From the sequence record MZ189261.1: a DNA stretch of 64,000 nt; one strand, written 5' to 3'. Made by a program: the position numbers and the translations under genes. The notes beneath the pieces were generated by a model. The model was not told the origin of the DNA. It made no database searches and saw only the letters and a list, made by a program, of their open reading frames with translations. The stretch is from Escherichia phage S143_2. Position 1 is the first letter of the stretch. The number at the start of each line of letters is the position of its first letter. Below, one piece after another: positions 6,565-60,828 of this stretch.

Positions 6565-6791
6565 TAGTAAGTTTCCTTCCAATAAGTTGTACCATTTTCA
6601 GTGATTTCACGGAAGATACCATAGATAGGCATTTCATCGCCGAGTTTTTCGTAAACGTAAACCACTTCGGTGTAGCATAAAAATTCGGTCCAGTTTTTCT
6701 GTACAACAACTAAATCAGGATTAAACAGAACATCTTCAAACTCATCGATGTTTGAATCAGTAGTTACGTTTTTAATGATTTGACGTTTCAT
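6564..6791 (-). CDS. hypothetical protein
   Basis: ORF track 6564..6836 trimmed to ATG (MKRQIIK) after AAGAGGAGAA SD; upstream part is a promoter element. Confidence 0.45.
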
Positions 6792-6810
6792 AATATTCTC
6801 CTCTTGTTTT

Positions 6811-6850
6811 GATAGGTCTATAGTATCATAGACCATAGTTGTTGTACATC
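6811..6850 (-). promoter_or_regulatory. early promoter with stem-loop (variant -35)
   Basis: gataggtctatagtatcatagacc inverted repeat around -10 TACTAT; -35-like TGTACA. Confidence 0.4.
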
Positions 6851-7373
6851 ATTTTAGCAAAATAAAATCAACTTGTTCTGCCAATGAACGTCTAAACATT
6901 AATTGACAACTTCCGAGGATGAAATCAGGTGCTTCATAGACCGCGATGTAGTATCCTTTAGCTTTCAAGAGTTCAACATCCACCTGGTCATCAAACCATG
7001 CATAAACCGCGTCAACACTTTCAAATCCAAAATAGAACCCTTGAGCCCAATCTTCACTCAATTCAAATGTGTGATCAATTCTATAGTATCTTAAGATATT
7101 TTGTTCAAGGAGTTTGTCTTCATTTACTGTAGGACGATTAGGGACATTATAGTTGTCGCCATGATGGTAGAAGTTACCTGAGAGTATTCCATGCTTATCA
7201 AGGAACTCCCATGTTTCTTCAGAGTTGTCGGTGCCCGACCAGCCGTATGGCGAGCGAGGTTCTTTATTCCAAGAGGTTTCCCAAATTCTGACGGCTTTAC
7301 CGTCTTCGATAGCAATTCCTGGTAATGATTCACGTTGAGTACAAAAACTACGTTCTACGCGGTAAACTAACAT
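6849..7373 (-). CDS. hypothetical protein (174 aa)
   Basis: ORF track. Confidence 0.55.
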   Translation of the reverse strand: MLVYRVERSFCTQRESLPGIAIEDGKAVRIWETSWNKEPRSPYGWSGTDNSEETWEFLDKHGILSGNFYHHGDNYNVPNRPTVNEDKLLEQNILRYYRIDHTFELSEDWAQGFYFGFESVDAVYAWFDDQVDVELLKAKGYYIAVYEAPDFILGSCQLMFRRSLAEQVDFILLK

Positions 7374-7377
7374 ATTA

Positions 7378-7428
7378 TTCTCCTCTGGTTGATATGGTTA
7401 TAATATCAAAACCGGAGGAGAAGTAAAC
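7378..7428 (-). promoter_or_regulatory. early promoter with stem-loop enclosing -10
   Basis: minus-sense GTTTAC, 17 nt, TATTAT; arms ttctcctccggttttg / caaccagaggagaa, second arm carries the SD. Confidence 0.55.
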
Positions 7429-7432
7429 AACT

Positions 7433-7852
7433 TTATGCAAAAGATGCTGGACAATATTTTTTGATTTGGAACTCAGGAACTACCATGAACTGTCCAGCGA
7501 AAACGATGTTATAAAGCTTAACACCATCTTCTACCCATTGGTCCGAAATAAAACCAGCAACTTGCTTAGTTTTCCACGGTGTTCCATCAGTTGCCGCAGC
7601 AATAGTGAATTCATGGTCTTTTACAACTAAAACAGACCTGCACAGTTTCCATTTGAACACACGTTCTTCTGGCTCAATGAATTGGCTTTTAACATAACCA
7701 ATGTTACCATCAACGTCACGAACTTTAACTTCGTTACGTCCAAAAACCGGATCACTCACAGAAAGAACTTCAACCAACTTCCCGGCAACTTTAGAGCGAG
7801 AAGCAACAGATACATATACGTAATCACCTGTAGAGAGATTTACAATATTCAT
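7433..7852 (-). CDS. KOW-like small protein, MotB-like paralog 1
   Basis: shares SRSK(A/V)AG(K/R)LVEV and GFISDQWVEDG.KLYNIVF blocks with next ORF; lies upstream of dexA as motB does in T4. Confidence 0.5.
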   Translation of the reverse strand: MNIVNLSTGDYVYVSVASRSKVAGKLVEVLSVSDPVFGRNEVKVRDVDGNIGYVKSQFIEPEERVFKWKLCRSVLVVKDHEFTIAAATDGTPWKTKQVAGFISDQWVEDGVKLYNIVFAGQFMVVPEFQIKKYCPASFA

Positions 7853-7861
7853 AATAATTCC

Positions 7862-8392
7862 TTAAGCTTTACGAGGAGACACATAGCGAGTGATTTCAGA
7901 TTCTTTAACAACTCGGAAGTCACCTAAGAATACGATATTGTATAACTTTTCGCCATCTTCAACCCATTGGTCACTAATGAAGCCACACATGGTATCAGTT
8001 GTGCTTGGATAACCGTATTCGTCGATGTAATCAAATTCTTTATCGGTTATAAATTCAACGCCTTTGCAAAGGGCCCATTTGAACTGTACATTAGGCTCAG
8101 TGGATTCACATACGTATCCATCACATGATTCAACTTCTTCAACAGAAGAAAAGTGTGCAGGTGCAACTTCTTCGCTTGAAGCAAATTGGACTCGTATATG
8201 TTTTTCCAGGAATTTAGGACTTACGTAAGCATACTGGGCATCTTGTCCGCCAAAACTGGGCATGATTCGAACTTTAACTTCTTTAACACGTCCCATGCCG
8301 TTAGTACGAAGCCCTGCGACTTCAACCAGACGACCTGCAGCTTTAGAACGAGAAGCAGGAGATACACGAAGGATTTCACCAATAGTAATCAT
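7862..8392 (-). CDS. KOW-like small protein, MotB-like paralog 2
   Basis: paralog of 7433..7852; ORF track start (TTG) trimmed to ATG (MITIGEILRV). Confidence 0.5.
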   Translation of the reverse strand: MITIGEILRVSPASRSKAAGRLVEVAGLRTNGMGRVKEVKVRIMPSFGGQDAQYAYVSPKFLEKHIRVQFASSEEVAPAHFSSVEEVESCDGYVCESTEPNVQFKWALCKGVEFITDKEFDYIDEYGYPSTTDTMCGFISDQWVEDGEKLYNIVFLGDFRVVKESEITRYVSPRKA

Positions 8393-8422
8393 ATTTTTTC
8401 TCTCTTTGTTTAAGTTGAATTC

Positions 8423-8452
8423 ATTATACTCCAACCATCCTTGGTTGTAAAC
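8423..8452 (-). promoter_or_regulatory. early promoter cassette class A
   Basis: minus-sense GTTTAC, 18 nt with caaccaaggatggttg hairpin, TATAAT; same cassette at 49593 and 50613. Confidence 0.55.
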
Positions 8453-8457
8453 TGGTT

Positions 8458-9135
8458 TTATCGCTGTTTTACACTTAACGGATCAGGATTCTCAGGGACA
8501 TCTTCAAGGCCAAGCGCATAACGCTGGGCATATTTTAACATCAAAATATCTTTAGCACAATCATGAATACTATCATGGGCAACGAATCCTTTTAGCGTAC
8601 CCATTGGTAATGGACACATACTTAATCCTCGTGTCAACGAGTAAGCTTCGATTGCCGTACGAATATCGCGTTGAGCCCAGAATTTAACCGGTTCTAATTT
8701 ATCAGTATCAATCTCTGGTTCAGGAACACCTTCATCACGATAGAGGTCACGAATCAAATCAACCAAGATCGGGAAGTCAAAGCTCATACCACGGCACCAC
8801 ATCTGTGATTTCCATTGGTCAACTTTATTAGCTCGACAATAATCTAAAAAGATTTTAATGCCTTCAAGCGTAGTGACATCGTCTTCAGACGGAGCCAAGT
8901 TTTTACGTGCTTCAGCCGATTGTTCTTTCCACCATTTCATAGTGGATTTAGCGAAAACTCGCTTCCCTTTCTGAGAAGCTAAATTAAATTTAATTCGCTT
9001 ACCTCGTTGAACAAGTTCTTCAAATGATTCAACAACTTCAGGGTCGGAATTATATGCAATAACCGCAAGGTCAATAACAGCCGCTTTTGATGTATTGCCG
9101 AATGTTTCAAAATCTATAATAACATCAGTGCTCAT
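8458..9135 (-). CDS. dexA: exonuclease A (DnaQ-like 3'-5' exonuclease)
   Basis: IIDFETFG exo motif, 225 aa, synteny with dda. Confidence 0.8.
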   Translation of the reverse strand: MSTDVIIDFETFGNTSKAAVIDLAVIAYNSDPEVVESFEELVQRGKRIKFNLASQKGKRVFAKSTMKWWKEQSAEARKNLAPSEDDVTTLEGIKIFLDYCRANKVDQWKSQMWCRGMSFDFPILVDLIRDLYRDEGVPEPEIDTDKLEPVKFWAQRDIRTAIEAYSLTRGLSMCPLPMGTLKGFVAHDSIHDCAKDILMLKYAQRYALGLEDVPENPDPLSVKQR

Positions 9136-12333: not shown

Positions 12334-12424
12334 TAAAAATTCAACATTTTCAAATGAATGATTTTGTTAGGTATTCGCGTTCTTGAAGTTCAGATTGACA
12401 TGTCATGATAGACCTCCATTTAAA

Positions 12425-12811: not shown

Positions 12812-13268
12812 CGAGATAAAAACTAGCAGGTTCAGAGAATGTTTCTAGCGCTACACCTTTTGTCTTAAAAAATTTCCAAATAGCTCGTTGCAAATGGACT
12901 AAATCTGCTAATGATGTAATAAAGTATTTTTTGGCAAAATACTTATGGTCTCGCTTTTCAAACAAGTCTAAACGCTTTTCAGGATTCACATAAACTGCAT
13001 TTTCCGTAGATTCATAACCTAAGTCCTTTATGCCTTCTTCAAGACTAAACGGAGAATTTTTAGAACGAGTAATAGCTCCAACTCGCTCTACACGAATTTT
13101 GTAACCTTTAGGAATCTGCAATTTGCAGAATTCTTCTACGATATATTGCGGATTATTTAGACTTTTGTTAATTAGAATAGCTATTTCTAGTGGAGTCTTA
13201 TCTTCCACTGGTATATGTTTAAATGACTTGGCTTCAAGCAAATACATTTTAAATAGCATAGCATCCAT
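12804..13268 (-). CDS. hypothetical protein (154 aa)
   Basis: ORF track. Confidence 0.55.
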   Translation of the reverse strand: MDAMLFKMYLLEAKSFKHIPVEDKTPLEIAILINKSLNNPQYIVEEFCKLQIPKGYKIRVERVGAITRSKNSPFSLEEGIKDLGYESTENAVYVNPEKRLDLFEKRDHKYFAKKYFITSLADLVHLQRAIWKFFKTKGVALETFSEPASFYLGE

Positions 13269-13447
13269 TATAATTTCCTCGATGGTTCACCCATATAAAG
13301 TTTTACAATACGTTCGCCTTCATCTTCGACGAGCTTTTCTTCATGTTTCTGGAATTCTTTAGCCATATTCTCTTCAAGAACATCCAGCCAATCTTCTGGA
13401 CCGACACCATCGTCCCAGCTTTTAAACCATTTAACTATCTTGTTCAT
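13268..13447 (-). CDS. small ORF (59 aa, below cutoff)
   Basis: ATGA overlap with upstream stop, TAATG overlap with downstream start. Confidence 0.35.
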   Translation of the reverse strand: MNKIVKWFKSWDDGVGPEDWLDVLEENMAKEFQKHEEKLVEDEGERIVKLYMGEPSRKL

Positions 13448-13879: not shown

Positions 13880-13930
13880 CTCCTCTTGAGTAAGTAATAA
13901 TATCTTAACACAGTTTTTAGTGGTTGTAAA
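13880..13930 (-). promoter_or_regulatory. early promoter
   Basis: minus-sense GTTTAC, 17 nt, TAAGAT, then GAGGAGAA SD. Confidence 0.45.
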
Positions 13931-13937
13931 CTGTAGA

Positions 13938-13966
13938 AACAAAAAAAGGAATCCCGAAGGATTCCT
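13938..13966 (-). terminator. UUCG-tetraloop terminator after soc
   Basis: minus-sense aggaatcc-ttcg-ggattcct followed by T7. Confidence 0.6.
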
Positions 13967-32154: not shown

Positions 32155-32214
32155 TTAATTTCCTTTAGACGAGTTATTGTCTTTTGTTTGTTGATGAACT
32201 TATTATACTCCAAA

Positions 32215-32230
32215 TGGGACCGAAGTCCCA
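32215..32230 (-). terminator. UUCG-tetraloop hairpin after regA
   Basis: minus-sense tgggac-ttcg-gtccca, followed by a TATAAT for gene 43. Confidence 0.4.
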
Positions 32231-32235
32231 TTGCT

Positions 32236-32604
32236 TTAATTACCAATTGTATATTTTGCTTTCAAAGTCCAGTCATCTTTCTGTTTAAAAGAGATAACAC
32301 GGAAGTTATTAGTCAGGCTAAATAGATCTTCACGAGCAGAGTCTTCAATAACAATCAATCCCCAGTCTTCAAGCAACTGGGCAATCGAATCACGTCGCTG
32401 ATAGTCTTCACCATCAATATCAACCTGACGCCCGTCCATACGCAGCATTTCTTTAAAGTGGACGATATAGTACTTACCTTGCTTTTGGAGGATATGACAA
32501 GACTGGTAAAGGACTTTATCCTTGTTATTAGCGATGCCCATACGGGTCAAAGTCTCTTTGACTTTCAGAAAATCTTCAGGGTTCTTCAATTTAATTTCAA
32601 TCAT
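32236..32604 (-). CDS. regA: translational repressor RegA
   Basis: MIEIKLKNPEDFLKVKETLTRMGIANNKDKVLYQSCHILQK matches RegA. Confidence 0.85.
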   Translation of the reverse strand: MIEIKLKNPEDFLKVKETLTRMGIANNKDKVLYQSCHILQKQGKYYIVHFKEMLRMDGRQVDIDGEDYQRRDSIAQLLEDWGLIVIEDSAREDLFSLTNNFRVISFKQKDDWTLKAKYTIGN

Positions 32605-42694: not shown

Positions 42695-42737
42695 TAGCAG
42701 ATGGTTTAATCTTAACATATCTATCGAGGATGTAAAC
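42695..42737 (-). promoter_or_regulatory. early promoter
   Basis: minus-sense GTTTAC, 17 nt, TAAGAT, then GGAAA SD. Confidence 0.45.
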
Positions 42738-46066: not shown

Positions 46067-46536
46067 TTTAAACTCTTTCTAAGCTGCTTTTTGAATGAAG
46101 CTATTAATTGTGTTTTAGTATCTGATTCATTATATTCAAATCCTCTTTGAAGCATCTCGGTCATCATTTCCTCTTTACCTAGTCTTGAGAACTCTTTAGT
46201 TTTGTCTGGAACAAAATTAGGATGGATATTATTATCAGAATAATCTTGTTTCAAATAAGCGAGAAGAGCTTCAAGCCATTCTAGGTAGTCGACATCACGG
46301 CCTTTAAGACCAGAACGGTTGAACTTATGCTTCATTTGACCTTCTGCTGCGTTGCACAGATTACAGAGTAATCCACGAACTCTACCGGCTTTTGGCCCGT
46401 TTAATTCATGGTCGTGGTCAAGATGGTTACCTTGAACATCAGGGTCTAATTCACGGTGGCAAATAGGACACTTACCGTTCTGTGCATCATAAAATTTTTG
46501 TTTTTCTTCTTTATATTTTGCGCCTGATAATAACAT
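46063..46536 (-). CDS. 49: endonuclease VII (Holliday junction resolvase) gp49
   Basis: 157 aa, CPICHREL...HLDHDHELNGPKAGRVRGLLCNLCN zinc/HNH-like core. Confidence 0.9.
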   Translation of the reverse strand: MLLSGAKYKEEKQKFYDAQNGKCPICHRELDPDVQGNHLDHDHELNGPKAGRVRGLLCNLCNAAEGQMKHKFNRSGLKGRDVDYLEWLEALLAYLKQDYSDNNIHPNFVPDKTKEFSRLGKEEMMTEMLQRGFEYNESDTKTQLIASFKKQLRKSLK

Positions 46537-47642: not shown

Positions 47643-47902
47643 TTAAAATATTCTCGCAGTTGGTCAAATCCACCAATGTGACTTCCATCAGGAGCAAACA
47701 CTTGAGGCATAGTCAATCCGACTTGTGATTCACGTCCAAGCTTAACCAGAAGCTCAGCAATTTTCTCATCATCGAACACACCTTTTTCTGGCATAACATT
47801 AATGAATTCAAATGGCTGTTTCTTAACAGTCAGCAATCGTTTCGCATTATCACAATAAATGCATTTATGAATAGTAGAGTCGTACCCGTACACTTTAAAC
47901 AT
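47639..47902 (-). CDS. nrdC: thioredoxin NrdC
   Basis: MFKVYGYDS..HKC.YCDNAKRLL thioredoxin active site; 87 aa after trimming. Confidence 0.85.
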   Translation of the reverse strand: MFKVYGYDSTIHKCIYCDNAKRLLTVKKQPFEFINVMPEKGVFDDEKIAELLVKLGRESQVGLTMPQVFAPDGSHIGGFDQLREYFK

Positions 47903-48308
47903 TATTTTTCCTTTCATCGATTAAATATGCAATGCCAAATACAATACATGTAATAAAACCTGTGATACAGATAGAAACCAACAACACTGTACCAAAGAAC
48001 CAAATAAGGTTATCTTTAGTAGTTTGTTTGATATCCATCTCACGAATTTCTATAGCTATCGTATCACCTTTATTCAGAAGCGTATAAAACGATGGCGATA
48101 CACGCCTGTCAAAAACTCGTCCTTGCTCATCTTTATAGACTGCAATAAATTCTAATTTAGAATATTTTCCTGTAGATTGGCCTGAGATTAATTCCACTAC
48201 CTCCACAGGAATTACTTTAGTTTCCATGTAAGTATTCTGGCTGTTCCAAATGAACGGAACGATGGCAAAAACTAAAGCTGCAATAAAACAACGAAGGCTG
48301 TATCTCAT
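47895..48308 (-). CDS. membrane protein (137 aa)
   Basis: two hydrophobic segments. Confidence 0.5.
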   Translation of the reverse strand: MRYSLRCFIAALVFAIVPFIWNSQNTYMETKVIPVEVVELISGQSTGKYSKLEFIAVYKDEQGRVFDRRVSPSFYTLLNKGDTIAIEIREMDIKQTTKDNLIWFFGTVLLVSICITGFITCIVFGIAYLIDERKNNV

Positions 48309-48613
48309 TATAATGTTCTCTCAAATTTGTGGAAGCATTTACGGCATTTCAATTTCAAGTTATCGGTGGTCCAGTTAACCAGTTGGACTTGGATAGTTCC
48401 ACATTCCGGACATGGATGTTTTGCTGCCGATTTGGCAGCATTTTCACGTCGTTCAACCATTTTCATTATTTCGTTCCATGCCGGAGGAACGAACTCTTCT
48501 TCACCGTGGATTTTATCTCGCTGAACAAATTCAATCTTTGAACTATCGTCAATAAACTTAACCAAGCCATGATTAGTGCTCATATCAATATCCTCTAAAA
48601 GACGTAGTTTCAT
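48308..48613 (-). CDS. zinc-ribbon protein (101 aa)
   Basis: CPEC...CRKC. Confidence 0.5.
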   Translation of the reverse strand: MKLRLLEDIDMSTNHGLVKFIDDSSKIEFVQRDKIHGEEEFVPPAWNEIMKMVERRENAAKSAAKHPCPECGTIQVQLVNWTTDNLKLKCRKCFHKFERTL

Positions 48614-49563
48614 TATAACACCTCAATGGCATTTCGTAAGCCATCCGCTTTCGCATTCAGAGCTTTTAACGATTTAGTTTGTTCTGCAATCTGGGCTTCG
48701 ACTTCTTTCAGACGAGATTTGAGATATTCGCGTTCTTCTCTTAAGTTATCAACTTTTTCTGCTTTAGGCTCTTTAATAGGCTTAGGTTTATACGTATTAG
48801 GGTTCTTCAGCTTAATTTGAATACGAGAACTGAATAACATTGAACCATTATCTTCAGTTTCGCTGAACATTTCAACAACATCCATAGTCTGTAACATCAT
48901 ACGAAGTTTATAAGACAGCGAACGAACGGTTTTGTTGCGCTTATTAATTTCTTCGGCTTTCATGGTACCGAGATTACGTGAGTAGTAATAAGGAACCTGG
49001 ATATCAATTGACAATGATGCGTTACCATTACCAGTTGGTTTGAATACTGCAGTAACCCAATCTTTAACATGAACTTTATTTGTACGACCATCACCGCCTG
49101 TGAATAATTTACGTGAATGTTTAAAAAGCATATTCACTTGGTTATTGAATTCACAAGCAAATTTATCAGCAAATTTAGTTTCAGGAATGGTAGATAACCA
49201 ATCAGCCAAATGAGTCTTTTTAACATCGTTAATAATAGTAAATTCAACTAAATCAGTTTTAGATGTCACAGATTTAATAAAGCTCGGCTTCATAAAGTTT
49301 TTAATGTTATCACGAGCTACAGTAGAAGATAATAAACGAGAACGTTTGAACCATTGAAGCAGTGTCCCTAATGAATGAGAATACGCATTCTGAGTATCTT
49401 TACAGATATGATTTTCTTGGCCTGTGTATGTACCAAAATCGCGAAGAATACCACTTACTACAACTCGGTGTGGAACATCAAATCCTAATGAACCAGAAGC
49501 ACGTTGGGCATGAACGTTAGCGATAAGACCTGCAAAATAATCAATGTAATGTGAACGTGTCAT
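48613..49563 (-). CDS. hypothetical protein with C-terminal coiled coil (316 aa)
   Basis: heptad-rich C-terminal about 60 aa; first of three similarly built genes. Confidence 0.55.
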   Translation of the reverse strand: MTRSHYIDYFAGLIANVHAQRASGSLGFDVPHRVVVSGILRDFGTYTGQENHICKDTQNAYSHSLGTLLQWFKRSRLLSSTVARDNIKNFMKPSFIKSVTSKTDLVEFTIINDVKKTHLADWLSTIPETKFADKFACEFNNQVNMLFKHSRKLFTGGDGRTNKVHVKDWVTAVFKPTGNGNASLSIDIQVPYYYSRNLGTMKAEEINKRNKTVRSLSYKLRMMLQTMDVVEMFSETEDNGSMLFSSRIQIKLKNPNTYKPKPIKEPKAEKVDNLREEREYLKSRLKEVEAQIAEQTKSLKALNAKADGLRNAIEVL

Positions 49564-49592
49564 AATATTTTCCTCTCGTTAAGATAGAAAGA

Positions 49593-49621
49593 TTATACTC
49601 CAACCATCCTTGGTTGTAAAC
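49593..49621 (-). promoter_or_regulatory. early promoter cassette class A
   Basis: minus-sense GTTTAC, 17 nt with caaccaaggatggttg hairpin, TATAAT. Confidence 0.55.
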
Positions 49622-49625
49622 TGAT

Positions 49626-50585
49626 TTATGATTTTAATGCATTCATTGCGTTAAAAAGTTTAGAGTACTGCAACTGGAGCTTGGTAACTACTTGTTGAGC
49701 ATCACGAAGCTTAGCTTGTGCTTTGTCAAGTTCAACAGACAGTTGGTCCACAGTGGCTTTAATTTGATTATAATAGTAATCTTCGGCCGGAAGAAGGTCA
49801 TTAGAAACATTTAGTTTTACTGCAGACAGTTTGCACACATTTGGCAAACCTTTAAACATTGATTTACCCGAAGTAGAATAAGCACTTAGGACTTCGGCCT
49901 GTTCAATTGGGGTCCCAGTAAGCGATGCTTCAAACAATGCATTTTCCTTTTTAAGATTTTGATAGTATTCAGAGTCTTTGTGCCACCATGGCGCAGGAAC
50001 CTTTTTACCAATAGATACACGAGCCTGGATAGCGATATGGCCCTTATTCTTGATAGGGTCGATAATATTAAGCTCACGAGAATAAATTGCTTTAATCTGG
50101 TGAATATTATCACCTAACACTTCCAACGCTCGGTGGAATACACGAGCAACGTTATCATTCTTAGGTTTATACGTAAGAGTGAACTCGTTCTCACTGATAA
50201 CCATGATTTCCAACTTATCGTAAGTATATTTCAAATGTTTCATGTTAATTGCTTGAGGACGAATACGAGAAGCAATGGCCATCAGATTGTTAAGGTTATT
50301 CCGGAACTGCTTAGCGAAATATTGTCCTTCACCACCAATACAAAAATTACGAAGTTTCTGTTTGGCTAATAAACGGCTGAACTCACCATTTTTAATGAAC
50401 TCTTTAACGGGTGTGTTAGTAACGCATTCAAATTGAGTAAACTTACGAGAAGTAATCCCATAATACGAACAGATTTCCTCAATCTCTTCAGGAGTCTTTA
50501 CAGGCATACGGATAGGATTAGGACCTGGGGTATATGCGTTCGAGGTAAATTCTTTGATAAGTTCTCTACGTGTAATAAAAGCCAT
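49626..50585 (-). CDS. hypothetical protein with C-terminal coiled coil (319 aa)
   Basis: ORF track. Confidence 0.55.
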   Translation of the reverse strand: MAFITRRELIKEFTSNAYTPGPNPIRMPVKTPEEIEEICSYYGITSRKFTQFECVTNTPVKEFIKNGEFSRLLAKQKLRNFCIGGEGQYFAKQFRNNLNNLMAIASRIRPQAINMKHLKYTYDKLEIMVISENEFTLTYKPKNDNVARVFHRALEVLGDNIHQIKAIYSRELNIIDPIKNKGHIAIQARVSIGKKVPAPWWHKDSEYYQNLKKENALFEASLTGTPIEQAEVLSAYSTSGKSMFKGLPNVCKLSAVKLNVSNDLLPAEDYYYNQIKATVDQLSVELDKAQAKLRDAQQVVTKLQLQYSKLFNAMNALKS

Positions 50586-50612
50586 TTTATATTCCTCATG
50601 TTGAAAAATTTA

Positions 50613-50641
50613 TTATACTCCAACCATCCTTGGTTGTACAT
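50613..50641 (-). promoter_or_regulatory. early promoter cassette class A (variant -35)
   Basis: same ctccaaccatccttggttg core, TATAAT, -35 TGTACA. Confidence 0.5.
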
Positions 50642-51636
50642 CATTCCTTAAGAAGTTTTACTACCTGAATAAGATTAGCTCGTTCTGTTTTATTTTTACC
50701 GTTTAAGCCTGCTAATCGTGAGATTTCATCGTCAGTCTGTTGAATAGTTACATTAAGTTCGTTAATCAAAGCTTCAAAGTATTTGATTTGCTCAGCATGT
50801 TTTGATTCAAATTTCTGAACTGGAATAACGTCTTGGTTTAGTTCATCAATAAGGTCTTTAAGAGCATCTTCTTGGTTGATATCATATTCAACTTCTTTTA
50901 TTTCTTCAACGAGCTCGTCTTTATATCTAACGTCTTTTAGTCCTGGTGCTGGTCCTGAAATCTCTTCTTTAAGAGTACAAACATATCCAATACGATATCC
51001 AATGCCGTCTCGCTTGATATCAACTTCGTCAATAAATCCACAATGTTTAAGACCAGAGCCGATTAAGTCAAAATATCCTTGACGTCGTCCTTCAAACGTT
51101 ACACGAACTACTAAGACAGTTTTACCTGCAACCTTTTGAAGCTCACATTTATAAAAGTCTGTTGAACCTGAATAACGTGGATGAGTTTTAAAGTTCATCT
51201 GACGATCTAGGCCCATTTGTAAGCGTGCTGATACGGCCATAAAACGTGTTTGGTTCTCGTTAAGATGAGCAACAATCCATTTCAAAGGCATTTTACACTG
51301 TTCACGACCGAACAAATCAGTATATCCTAGATTACGCAGAATGTTGTTAGAGTTAATCATCGACAGAACGTTAAGTTTATTCAGCGCGCTGAAGATTCCA
51401 TCGGCCATTGATTTTCCGTAACCTTTACACGCTTTAATAAGCGCTCGCGGTAGATTAGTATAGATTTCAGACGGCATATGAAAATCAAATTTACTAGTCA
51501 GTAATTGATGAACTTGGATAGCAATTTGCTCATAATTAAGCGCTCTGCGATCATTATGGTCTTTAAACCACACTTTAATCTGTGAAGCACATAAACCGTT
51601 AATTTCATGTTTTACCGCATCAGATGTAATGCTCAT
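50641..51636 (-). CDS. hypothetical protein with C-terminal coiled coil (331 aa)
   Basis: ORF track. Confidence 0.55.
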   Translation of the reverse strand: MSITSDAVKHEINGLCASQIKVWFKDHNDRRALNYEQIAIQVHQLLTSKFDFHMPSEIYTNLPRALIKACKGYGKSMADGIFSALNKLNVLSMINSNNILRNLGYTDLFGREQCKMPLKWIVAHLNENQTRFMAVSARLQMGLDRQMNFKTHPRYSGSTDFYKCELQKVAGKTVLVVRVTFEGRRQGYFDLIGSGLKHCGFIDEVDIKRDGIGYRIGYVCTLKEEISGPAPGLKDVRYKDELVEEIKEVEYDINQEDALKDLIDELNQDVIPVQKFESKHAEQIKYFEALINELNVTIQQTDDEISRLAGLNGKNKTERANLIQVVKLLKE

Positions 51637-51698
51637 AACTATTTCCTCAGATTGAATTGGAACTCAAAACCATTATAACCCTTCCTTGGGTAAAGCGT

Positions 51699-52244: not shown

Positions 52245-52282
52245 GATAGGTCTATAATAACATAACCATAGACCTTGTAAAC
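52245..52282 (-). promoter_or_regulatory. early promoter with stem-loop
   Basis: minus-sense GTTTAC, 17 nt, TATTATAGACCTATC; aggtcta...tagacct arms. Confidence 0.55.
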
Positions 52283-54087: not shown

Positions 54088-54369
54088 TTACTTATCGCAC
54101 TTAGCAACATAATTAGGCATATCACAGAATACGGAGCGAGTAACTACTCGGCCCTTTGACCATGCTTCAGTTGCTTGTCCGGCCGTGCTATTAATATAGC
54201 TTGATCTAATGTTCTCAATACCCTGAGAATGTGATGCATTTACCGAACCATTAGAAGGCCCAGAAGACTGGTTACCACCAGCTCCTGCACTACCACCAGC
54301 AGCACCCGTGGTAGCACCAACAGAGAATGCCATCATTACTGCGAATAAACCAATTACTAATTTTTTCAT
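54088..54369 (-). CDS. secreted Gly/Ser-rich small protein
   Basis: signal peptide MKKLVIGLFAVMMAFSVGA; exact late promoter just upstream. Confidence 0.5.
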   Translation of the reverse strand: MKKLVIGLFAVMMAFSVGATTGAAGGSAGAGGNQSSGPSNGSVNASHSQGIENIRSSYINSTAGQATEAWSKGRVVTRSVFCDMPNYVAKCDK

Positions 54370-54400
54370 ATTTACCTCAAGTTAATGGTTATTTATCTAC

Positions 54401-55390
54401 TTATTTATAGTAAGAATTATGATTTTCGAGATAGACTTGTTCAAGGAAGTCATCCCAGAAACTCATATCTACTTTTTGTTGCATACCGTTCTTGGCAGCT
54501 TGTTCTGACGCATGTTCAACTTGGTCAACGATATCTTCTAGGAATTCTTGTACAGTTTTAAAAGTATGTTTACCAAGCTTAACATCGAGAATAAATGGAG
54601 CATCCTGAAGTGGGTAAACCAGGTCGCCTGTTTTGTAAATTTCCAATAATTGAAGTCCACCACGGCATGCATGACTCAATGCTTTCCAGTCAATACCTTC
54701 GTTAGCTTCTGCTTTACGAGCACGTTCGCCATAGTTCTCTTCTAGTTTAACAAGGATGGCATTGAACTCTTTATTGGTTAACGTGTCTTGGAATTTACGG
54801 TCTAACAGATTATAGAATGTTTGCTTACCTGTTTTCTCGTTTTCGGTTTCAACCCATGAAGCAAATTCACCTACAGGCAGAACATTCTTCATATGTGATA
54901 AACGAATTACTGCACCATTATCAAAGTATTGTCCCCATTCATTAGAACGTTTAAGGGCTTGACGAAGAACAGCCAGTCGAGAACCCTTGACACCGTATTT
55001 AGAAGCTTGCTTACGGACATACCCTAAATAAGATTTCATGTTAGTGGTATAGAAACGAGACCTGTTATCTTGAATATACTTCCATACATCAGGCAAATCA
55101 GATTTAACTACTAGACTTGGTGGAGTGTGAAGCATATCTAATGCGACGGTTTCACCATCCGCAGCTAGTTTAAAGAAATATTTGAGACTATACAACTCAT
55201 GGTCCACGTCGTCTTTTGTGTTCTTAGAAGATGTGTTATTCGTGTTCTTGCTCATATGTTCTTTAACGTTACCGGTCAAAATATCACGAGCATGAGGGAC
55301 ATAAATTTCTTTAAAATCGACGTCAGATTCAGGAGTAGACGTTCCATAAAGGTGGCTACCAAAGTAGCCTTTCATAATTGTTTTCATCAT
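54401..55390 (-). CDS. nucleotidyltransferase-fold protein (Pol-beta superfamily)
   Basis: GS-x9-SDVD signature (YFGSHLYGTSTPESDVDF), 329 aa. Confidence 0.55.
   Translation of the reverse strand: MMKTIMKGYFGSHLYGTSTPESDVDFKEIYVPHARDILTGNVKEHMSKNTNNTSSKNTKDDVDHELYSLKYFFKLAADGETVALDMLHTPPSLVVKSDLPDVWKYIQDNRSRFYTTNMKSYLGYVRKQASKYGVKGSRLAVLRQALKRSNEWGQYFDNGAVIRLSHMKNVLPVGEFASWVETENEKTGKQTFYNLLDRKFQDTLTNKEFNAILVKLEENYGERARKAEANEGIDWKALSHACRGGLQLLEIYKTGDLVYPLQDAPFILDVKLGKHTFKTVQEFLEDIVDQVEHASEQAAKNGMQQKVDMSFWDDFLEQVYLENHNSYYK
54402..54409 (-). promoter_or_regulatory. late promoter TATAAATA
   Basis: exact TATAAATA on minus strand about 30 nt before ATG of 54088..54369. Confidence 0.5.
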
Positions 55391-60777: not shown

Positions 60778-60828
60778 TTCTCCTCTAGTTGACAGGTCTA
60801 TAGTAACACAACTAGAGGAGAAGTAAAC
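60778..60828 (-). promoter_or_regulatory. early promoter with perfect stem-loop
   Basis: minus-sense GTTTAC, 17 nt, TACTATAGACCTGTC; arms ttctcctctagttg / caactagaggagaa. Confidence 0.6.

What the first reader, a model, noticed from the sequence alone, without database searches (positions are those of the whole stretch)
49593..50641. Near-identical 30-nt promoter cassette repeated upstream of paralog-like genes
The string attatactccaaccatccttggttgta(a/c)a occurs at 8421-8452, 49591-49621 and 50611-50641, each giving minus-sense GTTTAC(or TGTACA), hairpin caaccaaggatggttg, TATAAT. A partial copy is at 13921-13930. The copies precede the MotB-like duplicate and two of the three coiled-coil genes. 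Identical short cassettes at gene boundaries are plausible substrates for homologous exchange that shuffles gene modules.
Basis: seen in the sequence. Interest (0 to 1): 0.5.

Follow-up and report, generated by a model that had tools for sequence, protein, structure and literature searches.

The report
Repeated early-promoter cassette flanking optional phage genes
A 29-base strong early promoter with a small built-in hairpin is repeated three times in this T4-like (Mosigvirus) phage, and related phages have lost or gained the genes lying between neighbouring copies; this kind of gene shuffling has already been described for T4-type phages.

Summary
ATTATACTCCAACCATCCTTGGTTGTA(A/C)A occurs at 8423-8451, 49592-49620 and 50612-50640, where none is expected by chance. 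Read on the minus strand it is TTTACA/TGTACA, a 17-nt spacer holding CAACCA-agga-TGGTTG, then TATAAT. The window is a Mosigvirus (RB69/JS09-like T-even phage). The same sites in RB69 were already predicted as early promoters (Nolan 2006).

In 21 phage records nrdC.5, the 1020 bp between copies B and C, is missing and one hybrid cassette remains. Most Mosigviruses carry motB.1 between two cassettes. The window phage and about 18 records have one cassette and no motB.1, with two different crossover points inside the cassette. This is the PeSL-type modular shuffling of Arbiol 2010 and Comeau 2014, but without the upstream terminator that defines a PeSL.

The three nrdC.x genes are not detectable paralogs.

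One point seems to be new. The hairpin in the spacer is kept across Tequatro-, Mosig-, Dhaka- and Jiaodavirus. Its AGGA loop never varies and its stem changes by compensating substitutions (93.6% paired against 67% in shuffles). Its function is unknown.

Interest is modest: a new variant of a known kind.

The parts
8423..8451 (-). Cassette copy A: -35 TTTACA (8451-8446), 17-nt spacer with palindrome CAACCAaggaTGGTTG (8447-8432), -10 TATAAT (8428-8423). It lies between the dexA stop and motB.
   Evidence: The homologous RB69 site was predicted as early promoter Pe:8947.
8393..8422 (-). Leader and Shine-Dalgarno of motB (gaattcaacttaaacaaagagagaaaaaat). In two-cassette genomes this leader belongs to the second, motB-proximal cassette, so copy A in the window is a recombinant.
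7862..8392 (-). motB (176 aa), the first of two tandem MotB-family genes, expressed from copy A
   Evidence: (Pfam motB, 2.2e-35)
49592..49620 (-). Cassette copy B: TTTACA, 17 nt, TATAAT; palindrome at 49616-49601; upstream of nrdC.3
   Evidence: 11 of 12 sigma-70 match. RB69 Pe:51019. Annotated 'promoter' in phage NBG1.
48613..49563 (-). nrdC.3 homologue (316 aa, phrog_1435), downstream of copy B
49626..50585 (-). nrdC.5 homologue (319 aa, DUF7235). This optional gene lies between copies C and B and is absent from 21 related records.
50612..50640 (-). Cassette copy C: TGTACA, 17 nt, TATAAT; palindrome at 50636-50621; upstream of nrdC.5, 1020 bp from copy B
   Evidence: 10 of 12. RB69 Pe:52042.
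50641..51636 (-). nrdC.6 homologue (331 aa, phrog_2257). Its stop codon abuts copy C.
51672..51697 (-). Degenerate relative of the cassette upstream of nrdC.6: GCTTT-ACCC-aaggaa-GGGT-TATAAT. It keeps the AGGA-loop hairpin next to a -10, but the spacer is too short for a -35/-10 promoter.
   Evidence: The homologous T4, RB10 and JS10 site reads TACCAaggaTGGTA-TAAT.
13921..13933 (-). Partial copy CAGTTTACAACCA (-35 half only) belonging to a different early promoter (-10 TAAGAT). A UUCG-loop terminator lies just upstream at 13948-13965, giving the classical terminator-plus-promoter (PeSL) layout.

Best explanation
The repeat is a portable early-promoter cassette of a T-even (Mosigvirus) phage. 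It is a near-consensus host sigma-70 promoter (TTTACA/TGTACA, 17 nt, TATAAT) placed directly after the stop codon of the preceding gene and followed by a short leader, a Shine-Dalgarno sequence and an ATG. Each downstream gene (motB, nrdC.3, nrdC.5) therefore has its own immediate-early transcription start.

Because the 26-32 nt core is identical between copies, two nearby copies in direct orientation can recombine, either through the phage's own homologous recombination or through replication slippage. This excises or inserts the gene between them and leaves one hybrid but intact promoter, so the next gene stays expressed.

What is shown: the repeat itself, its promoter-like anatomy, and junctions in related genomes that are exactly one hybrid cassette.

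What is inferred: promoter activity, the recombination pathway, and the direction of each event (loss or gain).

The palindrome in the spacer is evolutionarily maintained, but what it contributes is unknown.
For: Repeat and anatomy.

Genome identity: Mosigvirus, 98.8-99.9% identical to phage SSE1 in this region.

Prior promoter predictions at the same RB69 sites: Pe:8947, Pe:8387, Pe:51019 and Pe:52042 (PMC1524935 Additional file 3). The NBG1 record annotates the same 29-mer as a promoter.

nrdC.5 indel:
- G2469, p000v and AV109 span 627-631 bp where the window spans 1651 bp, a difference of about 1020 bp, which equals the spacing of copies B and C.
- The junction sequence is nrdC.6-stop, TGTACA, core, then the nrdC.3 leader.
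- 21 records carry this junction.

motB.1 indel:
- Two-cassette genomes are RB69, WFK and L017.
- One-cassette genomes are the window, PNJ-9, AV114 and phi25-307, with two distinct recombinant junctions.
- About 18 records have the one-cassette junction.
- All four combinations of the two indels exist.

Exchange between distant copies: the nrdC.3 leader in L012, L033 and G2469 begins GAAT.., like the motB leader, instead of CTTT...

Precedent: PeSL-mediated shuffling and mini-circles in RB49/phi1, PST/T4 and nt-1/KVP40.
Against: - No transcript 5' ends are available for these sites, so promoter activity is consensus-based. The motif lacks the TGn extended -10 typical of T4 early promoters.
- The identical core is only 26-32 nt. 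Arbiol 2010 describes the phage recombination system as needing only small patches of homology under 50 bp. Events at a core this short are probably infrequent, and could equally be slippage.
- Other indels between the window and RB69 in the same 50 kb are not bounded by this cassette. These are the 503-bp deletion inside modB, ORF087c, a 191-bp segment between soc and gene 56, and a 312-bp small ORF. Three of them were examined and show only about 7 nt of microhomology; the junction between soc and gene 56 was printed but not analysed.
- Each presence/absence state could have arisen once and then spread by ordinary recombination in the flanking homology. The number of independent events is therefore at least 2 for motB.1 but unknown for nrdC.5.
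- The direction of each event, deletion or insertion, cannot be told.
Confidence: 0.8

Rival explanations
1. The conserved core is mainly a structured element, and the promoter is secondary or co-encoded. The element would be a hairpin with an invariant AGGA loop, formed in read-through early RNA or in DNA. It could act as an RNA processing or stability signal, a ribosome or S1 contact, a RegB/S1 target (GGAGUAUAAU follows the stem), or a protein-binding dyad. This does not exclude the promoter and recombination reading.
For: - 16 distinct variants from four genera keep the helix: 93.6% of cells are paired against 67.2% in shuffles (0 of 500 shuffles reach this). Three of 5 pairs change on both sides, and one pair occurs as CG, UA, AU and GC. 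Slid controls reach at most 36.5%.
- T4 has its own version, GTTTACTTT(G/A)CCACAaggaTGTGGTATAAT, at two unlinked loci: upstream of rIIA.1 and of nrdC.4. It is present twice per genome in most of the Tequatrovirus records sampled. Klebsiella Jiaodavirus carries the same 26 nt between motB and cef, with a different -10.
- The hairpin survives where the -35 is lost: upstream of T4 nrdC.3, upstream of Mosigvirus nrdC.6, and at T4 nrdC.7/8.
- GGAGUAUAAUN matches the RegB/S1 consensus GGAGRAYARAA at about 9 of 11 positions.
Against: - Durand 2006 tested all 30 intergenic GGAU motifs in T4 and found only those of 55.2 and motB.2 cut. The loop GGAU is therefore probably not a RegB site.
- There is no Rfam match.
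- The hairpin is weak (-6.9 kcal/mol), and the longer contexts fold no better than shuffles.
- The closing pair is broken (A.C) in 5 of 16 variants.
- Wobble evidence for the strand is mixed: U.G favours the sense strand in 1-2 variants, while A.C in the sense strand would be G.U in the antisense strand.
- Compensatory changes in short quasi-palindromes can arise without selection, by template-switch mutation. This is known from T4 rII work and is cited here from my own knowledge.
Confidence: 0.3
2. The copies resemble each other only because selection keeps each one a strong promoter, or because of common descent. On this view the indels next to them arose by unrelated mechanisms and the cassette plays no part in recombination.
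For: Other indels in the region use about 7 nt of microhomology unrelated to the cassette. Promoters sit at most gene boundaries in this compact genome, so some coincidence is expected.
Against: - The spacer, which promoter function does not constrain, is identical between copies.
- Deletion junctions are exactly one hybrid cassette, and the missing length equals the repeat spacing of 1020 bp.
- Two different crossover points lie inside the cassette at the motB.1 site.
- Both adjacent direct cassette pairs show the polymorphism.
Confidence: 0.07
3. The cassette is the attachment site of a dedicated site-specific recombination system. A recombinase would recognise the hairpin and move gene cassettes in the manner of an integron.
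For: A conserved dyad-symmetric core with an invariant loop. Arbiol 2010 speculated that PeSL stem-loops might be bound by a specific protein.
Against: - Crossovers occur at different positions, in the -35 in phi25-307 and in or after GGAGTATAAT in the window. This fits homology-driven exchange rather than a fixed cleavage site.
- No recombinase gene is linked to the copies.
- The stem sequence differs between copies that evidently still recombine.
Confidence: 0.04

Closest known systems
PeSL (promoter-early stem-loop) cassettes of T4-type phages (Arbiol et al. 2010, PMC2839356; Comeau et al. 2014, PMC4122927)
   Same: - A strong sigma-70-type early promoter with leader, Shine-Dalgarno and ATG, repeated in the variable regions of the genome.
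- Neighbouring copies flank optional genes that differ between close relatives.
- Crossovers map between the -35 and the ATG.
- The T4/PST consensus TTTACW-N17-TAYWAT fits.
- The nrdC region is the same hyperplastic region discussed for PST/T4.
   Different: - In a PeSL the stem-loop lies upstream of the promoter and works as a transcription terminator.
- Here no terminator precedes the three copies.
- The only hairpin sits inside the 17-nt spacer, has no U-tract, and carries an invariant AGGA loop.
- Mini-circles were not tested here.
T4-type early promoters as predicted in RB69 (Nolan et al. 2006, PMC1524935: Pe:8947, Pe:8387, Pe:51019, Pe:52042)
   Same: These are the same sites in a sister genome, and they fit the GTTTAC / TATAAT early consensus.
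   Different: That study listed coordinates only. It did not note that these promoters are near-identical copies, that they contain a conserved hairpin, or that they bound indels. These copies also lack the TGn extended -10 of the T4 'UP/-35/TGn/-10' class (PMC2988021).
T4 RNA hairpins that combine a promoter with a translation signal (genes e, soc, 49, I-TevI; review PMC3014915)
   Same: Promoter DNA doubles as one arm of an RNA structure that matters only in read-through transcripts. The gene 49 internal element in this window (about 46151) also shows a Shine-Dalgarno-like loop next to TATAAT.
   Different: Those hairpins sequester the downstream Shine-Dalgarno or AUG and involve late promoters. 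The hairpin here is self-contained within the spacer and does not pair with the downstream ribosome-binding site.
RegB/S1 endoribonuclease target sites (GGAGRAYARAA; Durand et al. 2006, PMC1702504)
   Same: GGAGUAUAAU(N) directly follows the stem. GGA is exposed in the loop, with the fourth base paired, which resembles the S1-independent substrate of Lebars 2001 as described in that paper.
   Different: The loop motif is GGAU or GGAC, not GGAG. In T4 only 2 of 30 intergenic GGAU motifs are cut, and neither belongs to these elements. Positions 5 and 10 of the 11-mer deviate from the consensus.

Membership tests
PeSL (promoter-early stem-loop cassette) | Strong sigma-70-like early promoter (-35, 17 nt, -10) | tested here: met
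   11 of 12 and 10 of 12 consensus matches with 17-nt spacers. This is a sequence test only, with no transcript data.
PeSL (promoter-early stem-loop cassette) | Stem-loop immediately upstream of the promoter that acts as a transcription terminator | tested here: not met
   No minus-strand terminator-like site lies next to any of the three copies. The -35 follows the upstream stop codon within 1-9 nt. The only hairpin is inside the spacer and has no T-run. The partial copy at 13921 does have an upstream terminator.
PeSL (promoter-early stem-loop cassette) | Shine-Dalgarno and start codon of the downstream gene at the 3' end of the element | tested here: met
   GAGAGG, TGAGGA or AGAGAGA followed by ATG, 26-30 nt after the -10
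PeSL (promoter-early stem-loop cassette) | Copies flank genes that are present or absent between close relatives, with junctions inside the element | tested here: met
   nrdC.5 and motB.1
PeSL (promoter-early stem-loop cassette) | Formation of excised mini-circles during infection | not testable with these tools
   Needs inverse PCR or long-read sequencing of infected cells
T4-type early promoter | GTTTAC-type -35, 17-nt spacer, TATAAT -10, A/T-rich upstream region, correct orientation before an early gene | tested here: met
   The RB69 orthologous sites were scored as early promoters by an HMM built from T4 early promoters. Copy C has TGTACA.
T4-type early promoter | Extended -10 (TGn), part of the 'UP/-35/TGn/-10' architecture (PMC2988021) | tested here: not met
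   The sequence before the -10 is GAG, and the column 'TG_before_second' reads no. The T4-type variant of the cassette does have TGG-TATAAT.
T4-type early promoter | Transcription start mapped within the first minutes of infection | not testable with these tools
   No transcript data for Mosigvirus were found
RegB/S1 cleavage site | [quoted passage not shown] | tested here: inconclusive
   GGAGUAUAAU(C/G/A) matches about 9 of 11 positions. The first G is in the outermost stem pair. Cleavage itself was not testable.
Rho-independent terminator | GC-rich stem followed by a U-tract | tested here: not met
   A 6-bp stem with 3 G-C pairs, followed by GAGUAUAAU. The terminator scan does not call it.
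Any Rfam RNA family | Covariance-model match | tested here: not met
   No match at E <= 1 in 47-54 kb

The most novel reading that the evidence does not exclude
The hairpin in the promoter spacer could be a functional element in its own right, co-encoded with the promoter. It has a 4-7 bp stem that changes by compensating substitutions and an invariant AGGA loop. It is present at several unlinked early promoters in Tequatrovirus, Mosigvirus, Dhakavirus and Jiaodavirus, and it persists at sites that have lost the -35.

It might be an RNA signal that acts only in read-through early transcripts, in processing, stabilisation of the upstream 3' end, or capture of the ribosome or S1. Alternatively it might be a DNA dyad that stimulates exchange between copies.

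If so, some T-even early promoters would be dual-coded: DNA promoter and structured signal in the same 29 nt.
Probability: 0.3. Interest if true: 0.6.

Novelty: new variant of a known kind. Interest (0 to 1): 0.35.

Why it matters
This locus shows concretely, at population scale, how T4-like phages gain and lose accessory early genes without disturbing their neighbours. Each optional gene carries its own promoter cassette, and recombination between cassettes removes or adds exactly one gene module.

That supports and extends the PeSL model to Mosigvirus. It also shows that the upstream terminator is not needed for the shuffling.

It is useful for annotating and engineering therapeutic T-even phages. 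nrdC.5 and motB.1 are naturally dispensable, and the cassette is a natural, self-contained insertion site.

The conserved AGGA-loop hairpin inside the spacer is a small, cheaply testable puzzle about what else early promoters encode.

Tried and rejected
- **Paralogy of the three ~320-aa genes.** blastp finds nothing. They fall in three different PHROGs, and only nrdC.5 has a Pfam family, DUF7235. Rejected at the sequence level; no structure comparison was run.
- **Hairpin as an intrinsic terminator, that is the 'SL' of a PeSL.** Rejected, because there is no U-tract and the scan does not call it.
- **A known RNA family.** No Rfam hit.
- **Loop GGAU as a RegB site.** Weakened by the published T4 survey. 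The Figure 3A list of cut sites could not be read, so the status of the T4 nrdC.3-upstream GGAG is unknown.
- **A mini-ORF or N-terminal extension starting at the ATG of 'TATAATG', with AAGGA as its Shine-Dalgarno.** The ATG is present in only some copies and the reading frames are not conserved. Rejected.
- **The search for related loci in IMG/VR with NrdC.3.** Only 4 loci came back, so the annotated phage collection was used instead.
- **Looking for annotated T4 promoters.** Neither NC_000866 nor AF158101 carries promoter features. Miller 2003 is not held, there are no supplements for Comeau 2014, and no T4 or Mosigvirus start-site data set was found.
- **Wobble pairs as a clue to which strand folds.** The evidence is mixed and was not used.

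Full report
**What is in the sequence**

The 29-mer ATTATACTCCAACCATCCTTGGTTGTA(A/C)A occurs at 8423-8451, 49592-49620 and 50612-50640. No further match exists within three mismatches, and none appeared in 100 shuffles. All genes here run on the minus strand. In that sense each copy reads TTTACA (TGTACA in the third copy), then ACCAAGGATGGTTGGAG (17 nt), then TATAAT. A leader of 26-30 nt, a Shine-Dalgarno sequence and an ATG follow.

The consensus scan ranks 49620-49592 as the best sigma-70 match between 47.5 and 54 kb, at 11 of 12 positions. The copy at 50640-50612 scores 10 of 12. Neither has a TGn extended -10, and no terminator-like site lies beside them on the minus strand.

The spacer contains the palindrome CAACCA-AGGA-TGGTTG. 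As RNA it folds at -6.9 kcal/mol (z = -3.05), and it is part of the minimum-energy and centroid folds of every read-through context tested. The 76-106 nt contexts as a whole fold no better than shuffles.

The 'partial copy' is CAGTTTACAACCA at 13921-13933. It is the -35 half of a different promoter, which follows a UUCG-loop terminator.

**Which genome and which genes**

The region is 98.8-99.9% identical to Shigella phage SSE1, a Mosigvirus of the RB69/JS09 group of T-even phages. Using the RB69 annotation:
- Copy A lies between dexA (8458-9135) and motB (7862-8392). A second MotB-family gene follows at 7433-7852 (Pfam motB).
- Copy B precedes nrdC.3 (48613-49563).
- Copy C precedes the gene RB69 calls nrdC.5 (49626-50585).
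- nrdC.6 (50641-51636) ends just before copy C.

The three nrdC.x proteins show no significant similarity to one another and belong to three different PHROGs. 'Paralog-like' is therefore not supported for them.

The four RB69 sites, that is the three copies plus a diverged one upstream of motB, were already listed as predicted early promoters Pe:8947, Pe:8387, Pe:51019 and Pe:52042 by Nolan et al. 2006. The NBG1 GenBank record annotates the same 29-mer as a promoter.

**Test of the recombination idea**

Copies B and C are 1020 bp apart in direct orientation, with only nrdC.5 between them. In phages G2469, p000v and AV109 the matching stretch spans 627-631 bp instead of 1651 bp. The junction reads nrdC.6-stop, then ..GATGTACA-ACCAAGGATGGTTGGAG-TATAAT, then the nrdC.3 leader and ATGACACGT. 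This is one hybrid cassette with nrdC.5 gone. A junction-specific query finds this arrangement in 21 records.

At the other locus, RB69, WFK and a metagenomic contig (L017) carry dexA-[cagTTTACAACCAAGGATGGTTGGAGTATAAT + ctttctatc.. leader]-motB.1-(small ORF in RB69)-[TTTTACATCCAAGGATGGATGGAGTATAAT + gaattcaac.. leader]-motB. The one-cassette genomes fall into two types:
- The window phage, PNJ-9 and AV114 lack motB.1 and have a single cassette made of the first core and the second leader.
- phi25-307 has the first flank joined to the second core.

The two types place the crossover at different positions inside the cassette. About 18 records have the one-cassette junction. All four combinations of the two indels occur. 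The nrdC.3 leader in some genomes starts GAAT.., like the motB leader, which suggests exchange between distant copies as well.

Not every indel uses the cassette. Between the window and RB69 there are several others: a 503-bp deletion that removes most of modB, the loss of ORF087c, a 191-bp difference between soc and gene 56, and a 312-bp extra ORF. The three whose junctions I examined show only about 7 nt of unrelated microhomology.

**Relation to what is known**

This is the behaviour described for PeSLs (promoter-early stem-loops). These are strong early promoters with leader and Shine-Dalgarno, repeated in hyperplastic regions. They flank ORFs that differ between sister phages and recombine to give deletions and mini-circles (Arbiol 2010; Comeau 2014). 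Comeau et al. give TTTACW-N17-TAYWAT for T4/PST and show PeSLs near indels in the PST 43-51 kb region, which is the nrdC region.

The difference lies in the stem-loop. A PeSL has a stem-loop terminator just upstream of the promoter. The three copies here have none, and their only hairpin sits inside the spacer. I therefore do not file them as PeSLs in the strict sense. They work like PeSLs, and they are T-even early promoters by sequence.

**The hairpin**

Variants collected from the fetched loci keep CA-AGGA-TG constant while the stem changes:
- CAACCA/TGGTTG: the main Mosigvirus form.
- CATCCA/TGGATG: upstream of Mosigvirus motB, and upstream of nrdC.4 in Dhakavirus JS10.
- CTTCCA/TGGAGG: two IMG/VR genomes.
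- AGCCA/TGGCT: upstream of T4 nrdC.3. There is no -35, and the -10 reads TATAAAT.
- CCACA/TGTGG: upstream of T4 nrdC.4 and of T4 rIIA.1, and in Klebsiella phage JD18 between motB and cef.
- TACCA/TGGTA: downstream of nrdC.8 in T4, RB10 and JS10.
- ACCC/GGGT: the same site in Mosigvirus, window 51672-51697.

On 16 distinct variants the 5-bp helix is 93.6% paired, against 67.2% in column shuffles (0 of 500 shuffles reach it). Three pairs change on both sides, and one pair occurs as CG, UA, AU and GC. Sliding the partner by one to three columns gives at most 36.5% pairing.

The T4-type 33-mer is found in 668 records, with two places per genome in nearly all rows sampled, including 134 Klebsiella phages. 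The Mosigvirus-type is found in 209 records with 3-4 copies each, and in Dhakavirus with one diverged copy.

So the dyad symmetry is maintained across at least four genera and at non-orthologous sites. I cannot say why.
- RegB is a candidate only for the GGAG that follows the stem (GGAGUAUAAUN against GGAGRAYARAA). The loop GGAU is probably not cut, because only two of 30 intergenic GGAU motifs in T4 are, and neither belongs to these elements.
- Template-switch correction of quasi-palindromes is well known in T4 (my own knowledge). It could produce compensating changes without selection.
- Wobble evidence on which strand folds is mixed.

**Verdict**

Two things are new here. One is the population-level documentation of two cassette-bounded optional genes in Mosigvirus. 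The other is the conserved AGGA-loop hairpin inside the spacer. I rate this a new variant of a known kind, of modest interest.

Noticed in passing
window minus strand, promoters at 60827, 19330 and 7427 (weaker at 42736 and 19764): A second family of early-type promoters, GTTTACT-tctcctNNagttg-tgt-TAYTAT-agacct.t-caactNNaggaga-..ATG. The spacer is the reverse complement of the downstream leader plus Shine-Dalgarno: 14 bp, -19 to -21.6 kcal/mol, with compensating differences between copies. Read-through transcripts would hide the ribosome-binding site, whereas transcripts started at the promoter itself lack the 5' arm. This logic is known for the late promoters of T4 e, soc, 49 and I-TevI, but the review I read does not list it for early promoters.
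   Followed up: partly
window minus strand, promoters at 52281 and 6848: The spacer (AGGTCTATGG) pairs with the start-site region (ATAGACCT), so the -10 box sits in the loop of an 8-11 bp hairpin (-9.5 to -13.6 kcal/mol).
   Followed up: no
window about 12350-12406 (minus strand); RB69 12849-13353: Relative to RB69, the window phage lacks about 503 bp covering most of modB, the ADP-ribosyltransferase gene. What remains is an 18-codon remnant. The deletion ends lie in a short ACAAA(A)TC repeat, not in a promoter cassette.
   Followed up: partly
window 54090-54403 (minus strand): An extra ~100-aa ORF with a signal-peptide-like N-terminus (MKKLVIGLFAVMMAFSVGA..) lies between the nrdC.11 stop codon and its terminator. 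It is absent from RB69, and its boundaries share only ATAAGTA.
   Followed up: no
window about 46572; RB69 47771-47950: RB69ORF087c, a 180-bp ORF between gene 49 and pin, is absent from the window, although it is present in the close relative SSE1. The boundaries share ACGTTTA only.
   Followed up: partly
window about 46135-46151 (minus strand), inside gene 49: TTCAAA-gagga-TTTGAA-TATAATG is a hairpin with a Shine-Dalgarno-like loop next to a -10-like box and an ATG. It is conserved in T4, RB69, RB10 and ACG-C40 and probably corresponds to the known internal start of endonuclease VII.
   Followed up: no
window about 32202-32240 (minus strand), between gene 43 and regA: A UUCG-loop terminator (GGGACTTCGGTCCC) is followed directly by ATTTGGAGTATAAT. 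This shares the GGAGTATAAT half of the cassette but not the AGGA hairpin.
   Followed up: no
L052 (phage JS10) 1560-2010: Two identical copies of another promoter cassette (GTGTACATCTGCTTTAAACATGTTATTATAGACCTATCA) flank a small ORF between nrdC.11 and nrdC.10. This is the same 'gene between two promoters' layout, built from a different promoter family.
   Followed up: no
L053 (phage ACG-C40) 5805-6213: The first ~70 codons of nrdC.5 are followed by the last ~70 codons of nrdC.3, and nrdC.4 is missing. This deletion has its end-points inside coding sequence rather than in the cassettes.
   Followed up: no
T4 (L054 about 6650-8910) against RB69 (L004 850-3620): The order of motB, motB.1 and motB.2 differs between T4 (dexA, motB.2, motB.1, motB) and RB69 (dexA, motB.1, ORF012c, motB, a motB-like ORF, motB.2). 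nrdC.7 sits next to nrdC in Mosigvirus but between nrdC.6 and nrdC.8 in T4. Both regions therefore show module reshuffling between genera.
   Followed up: partly
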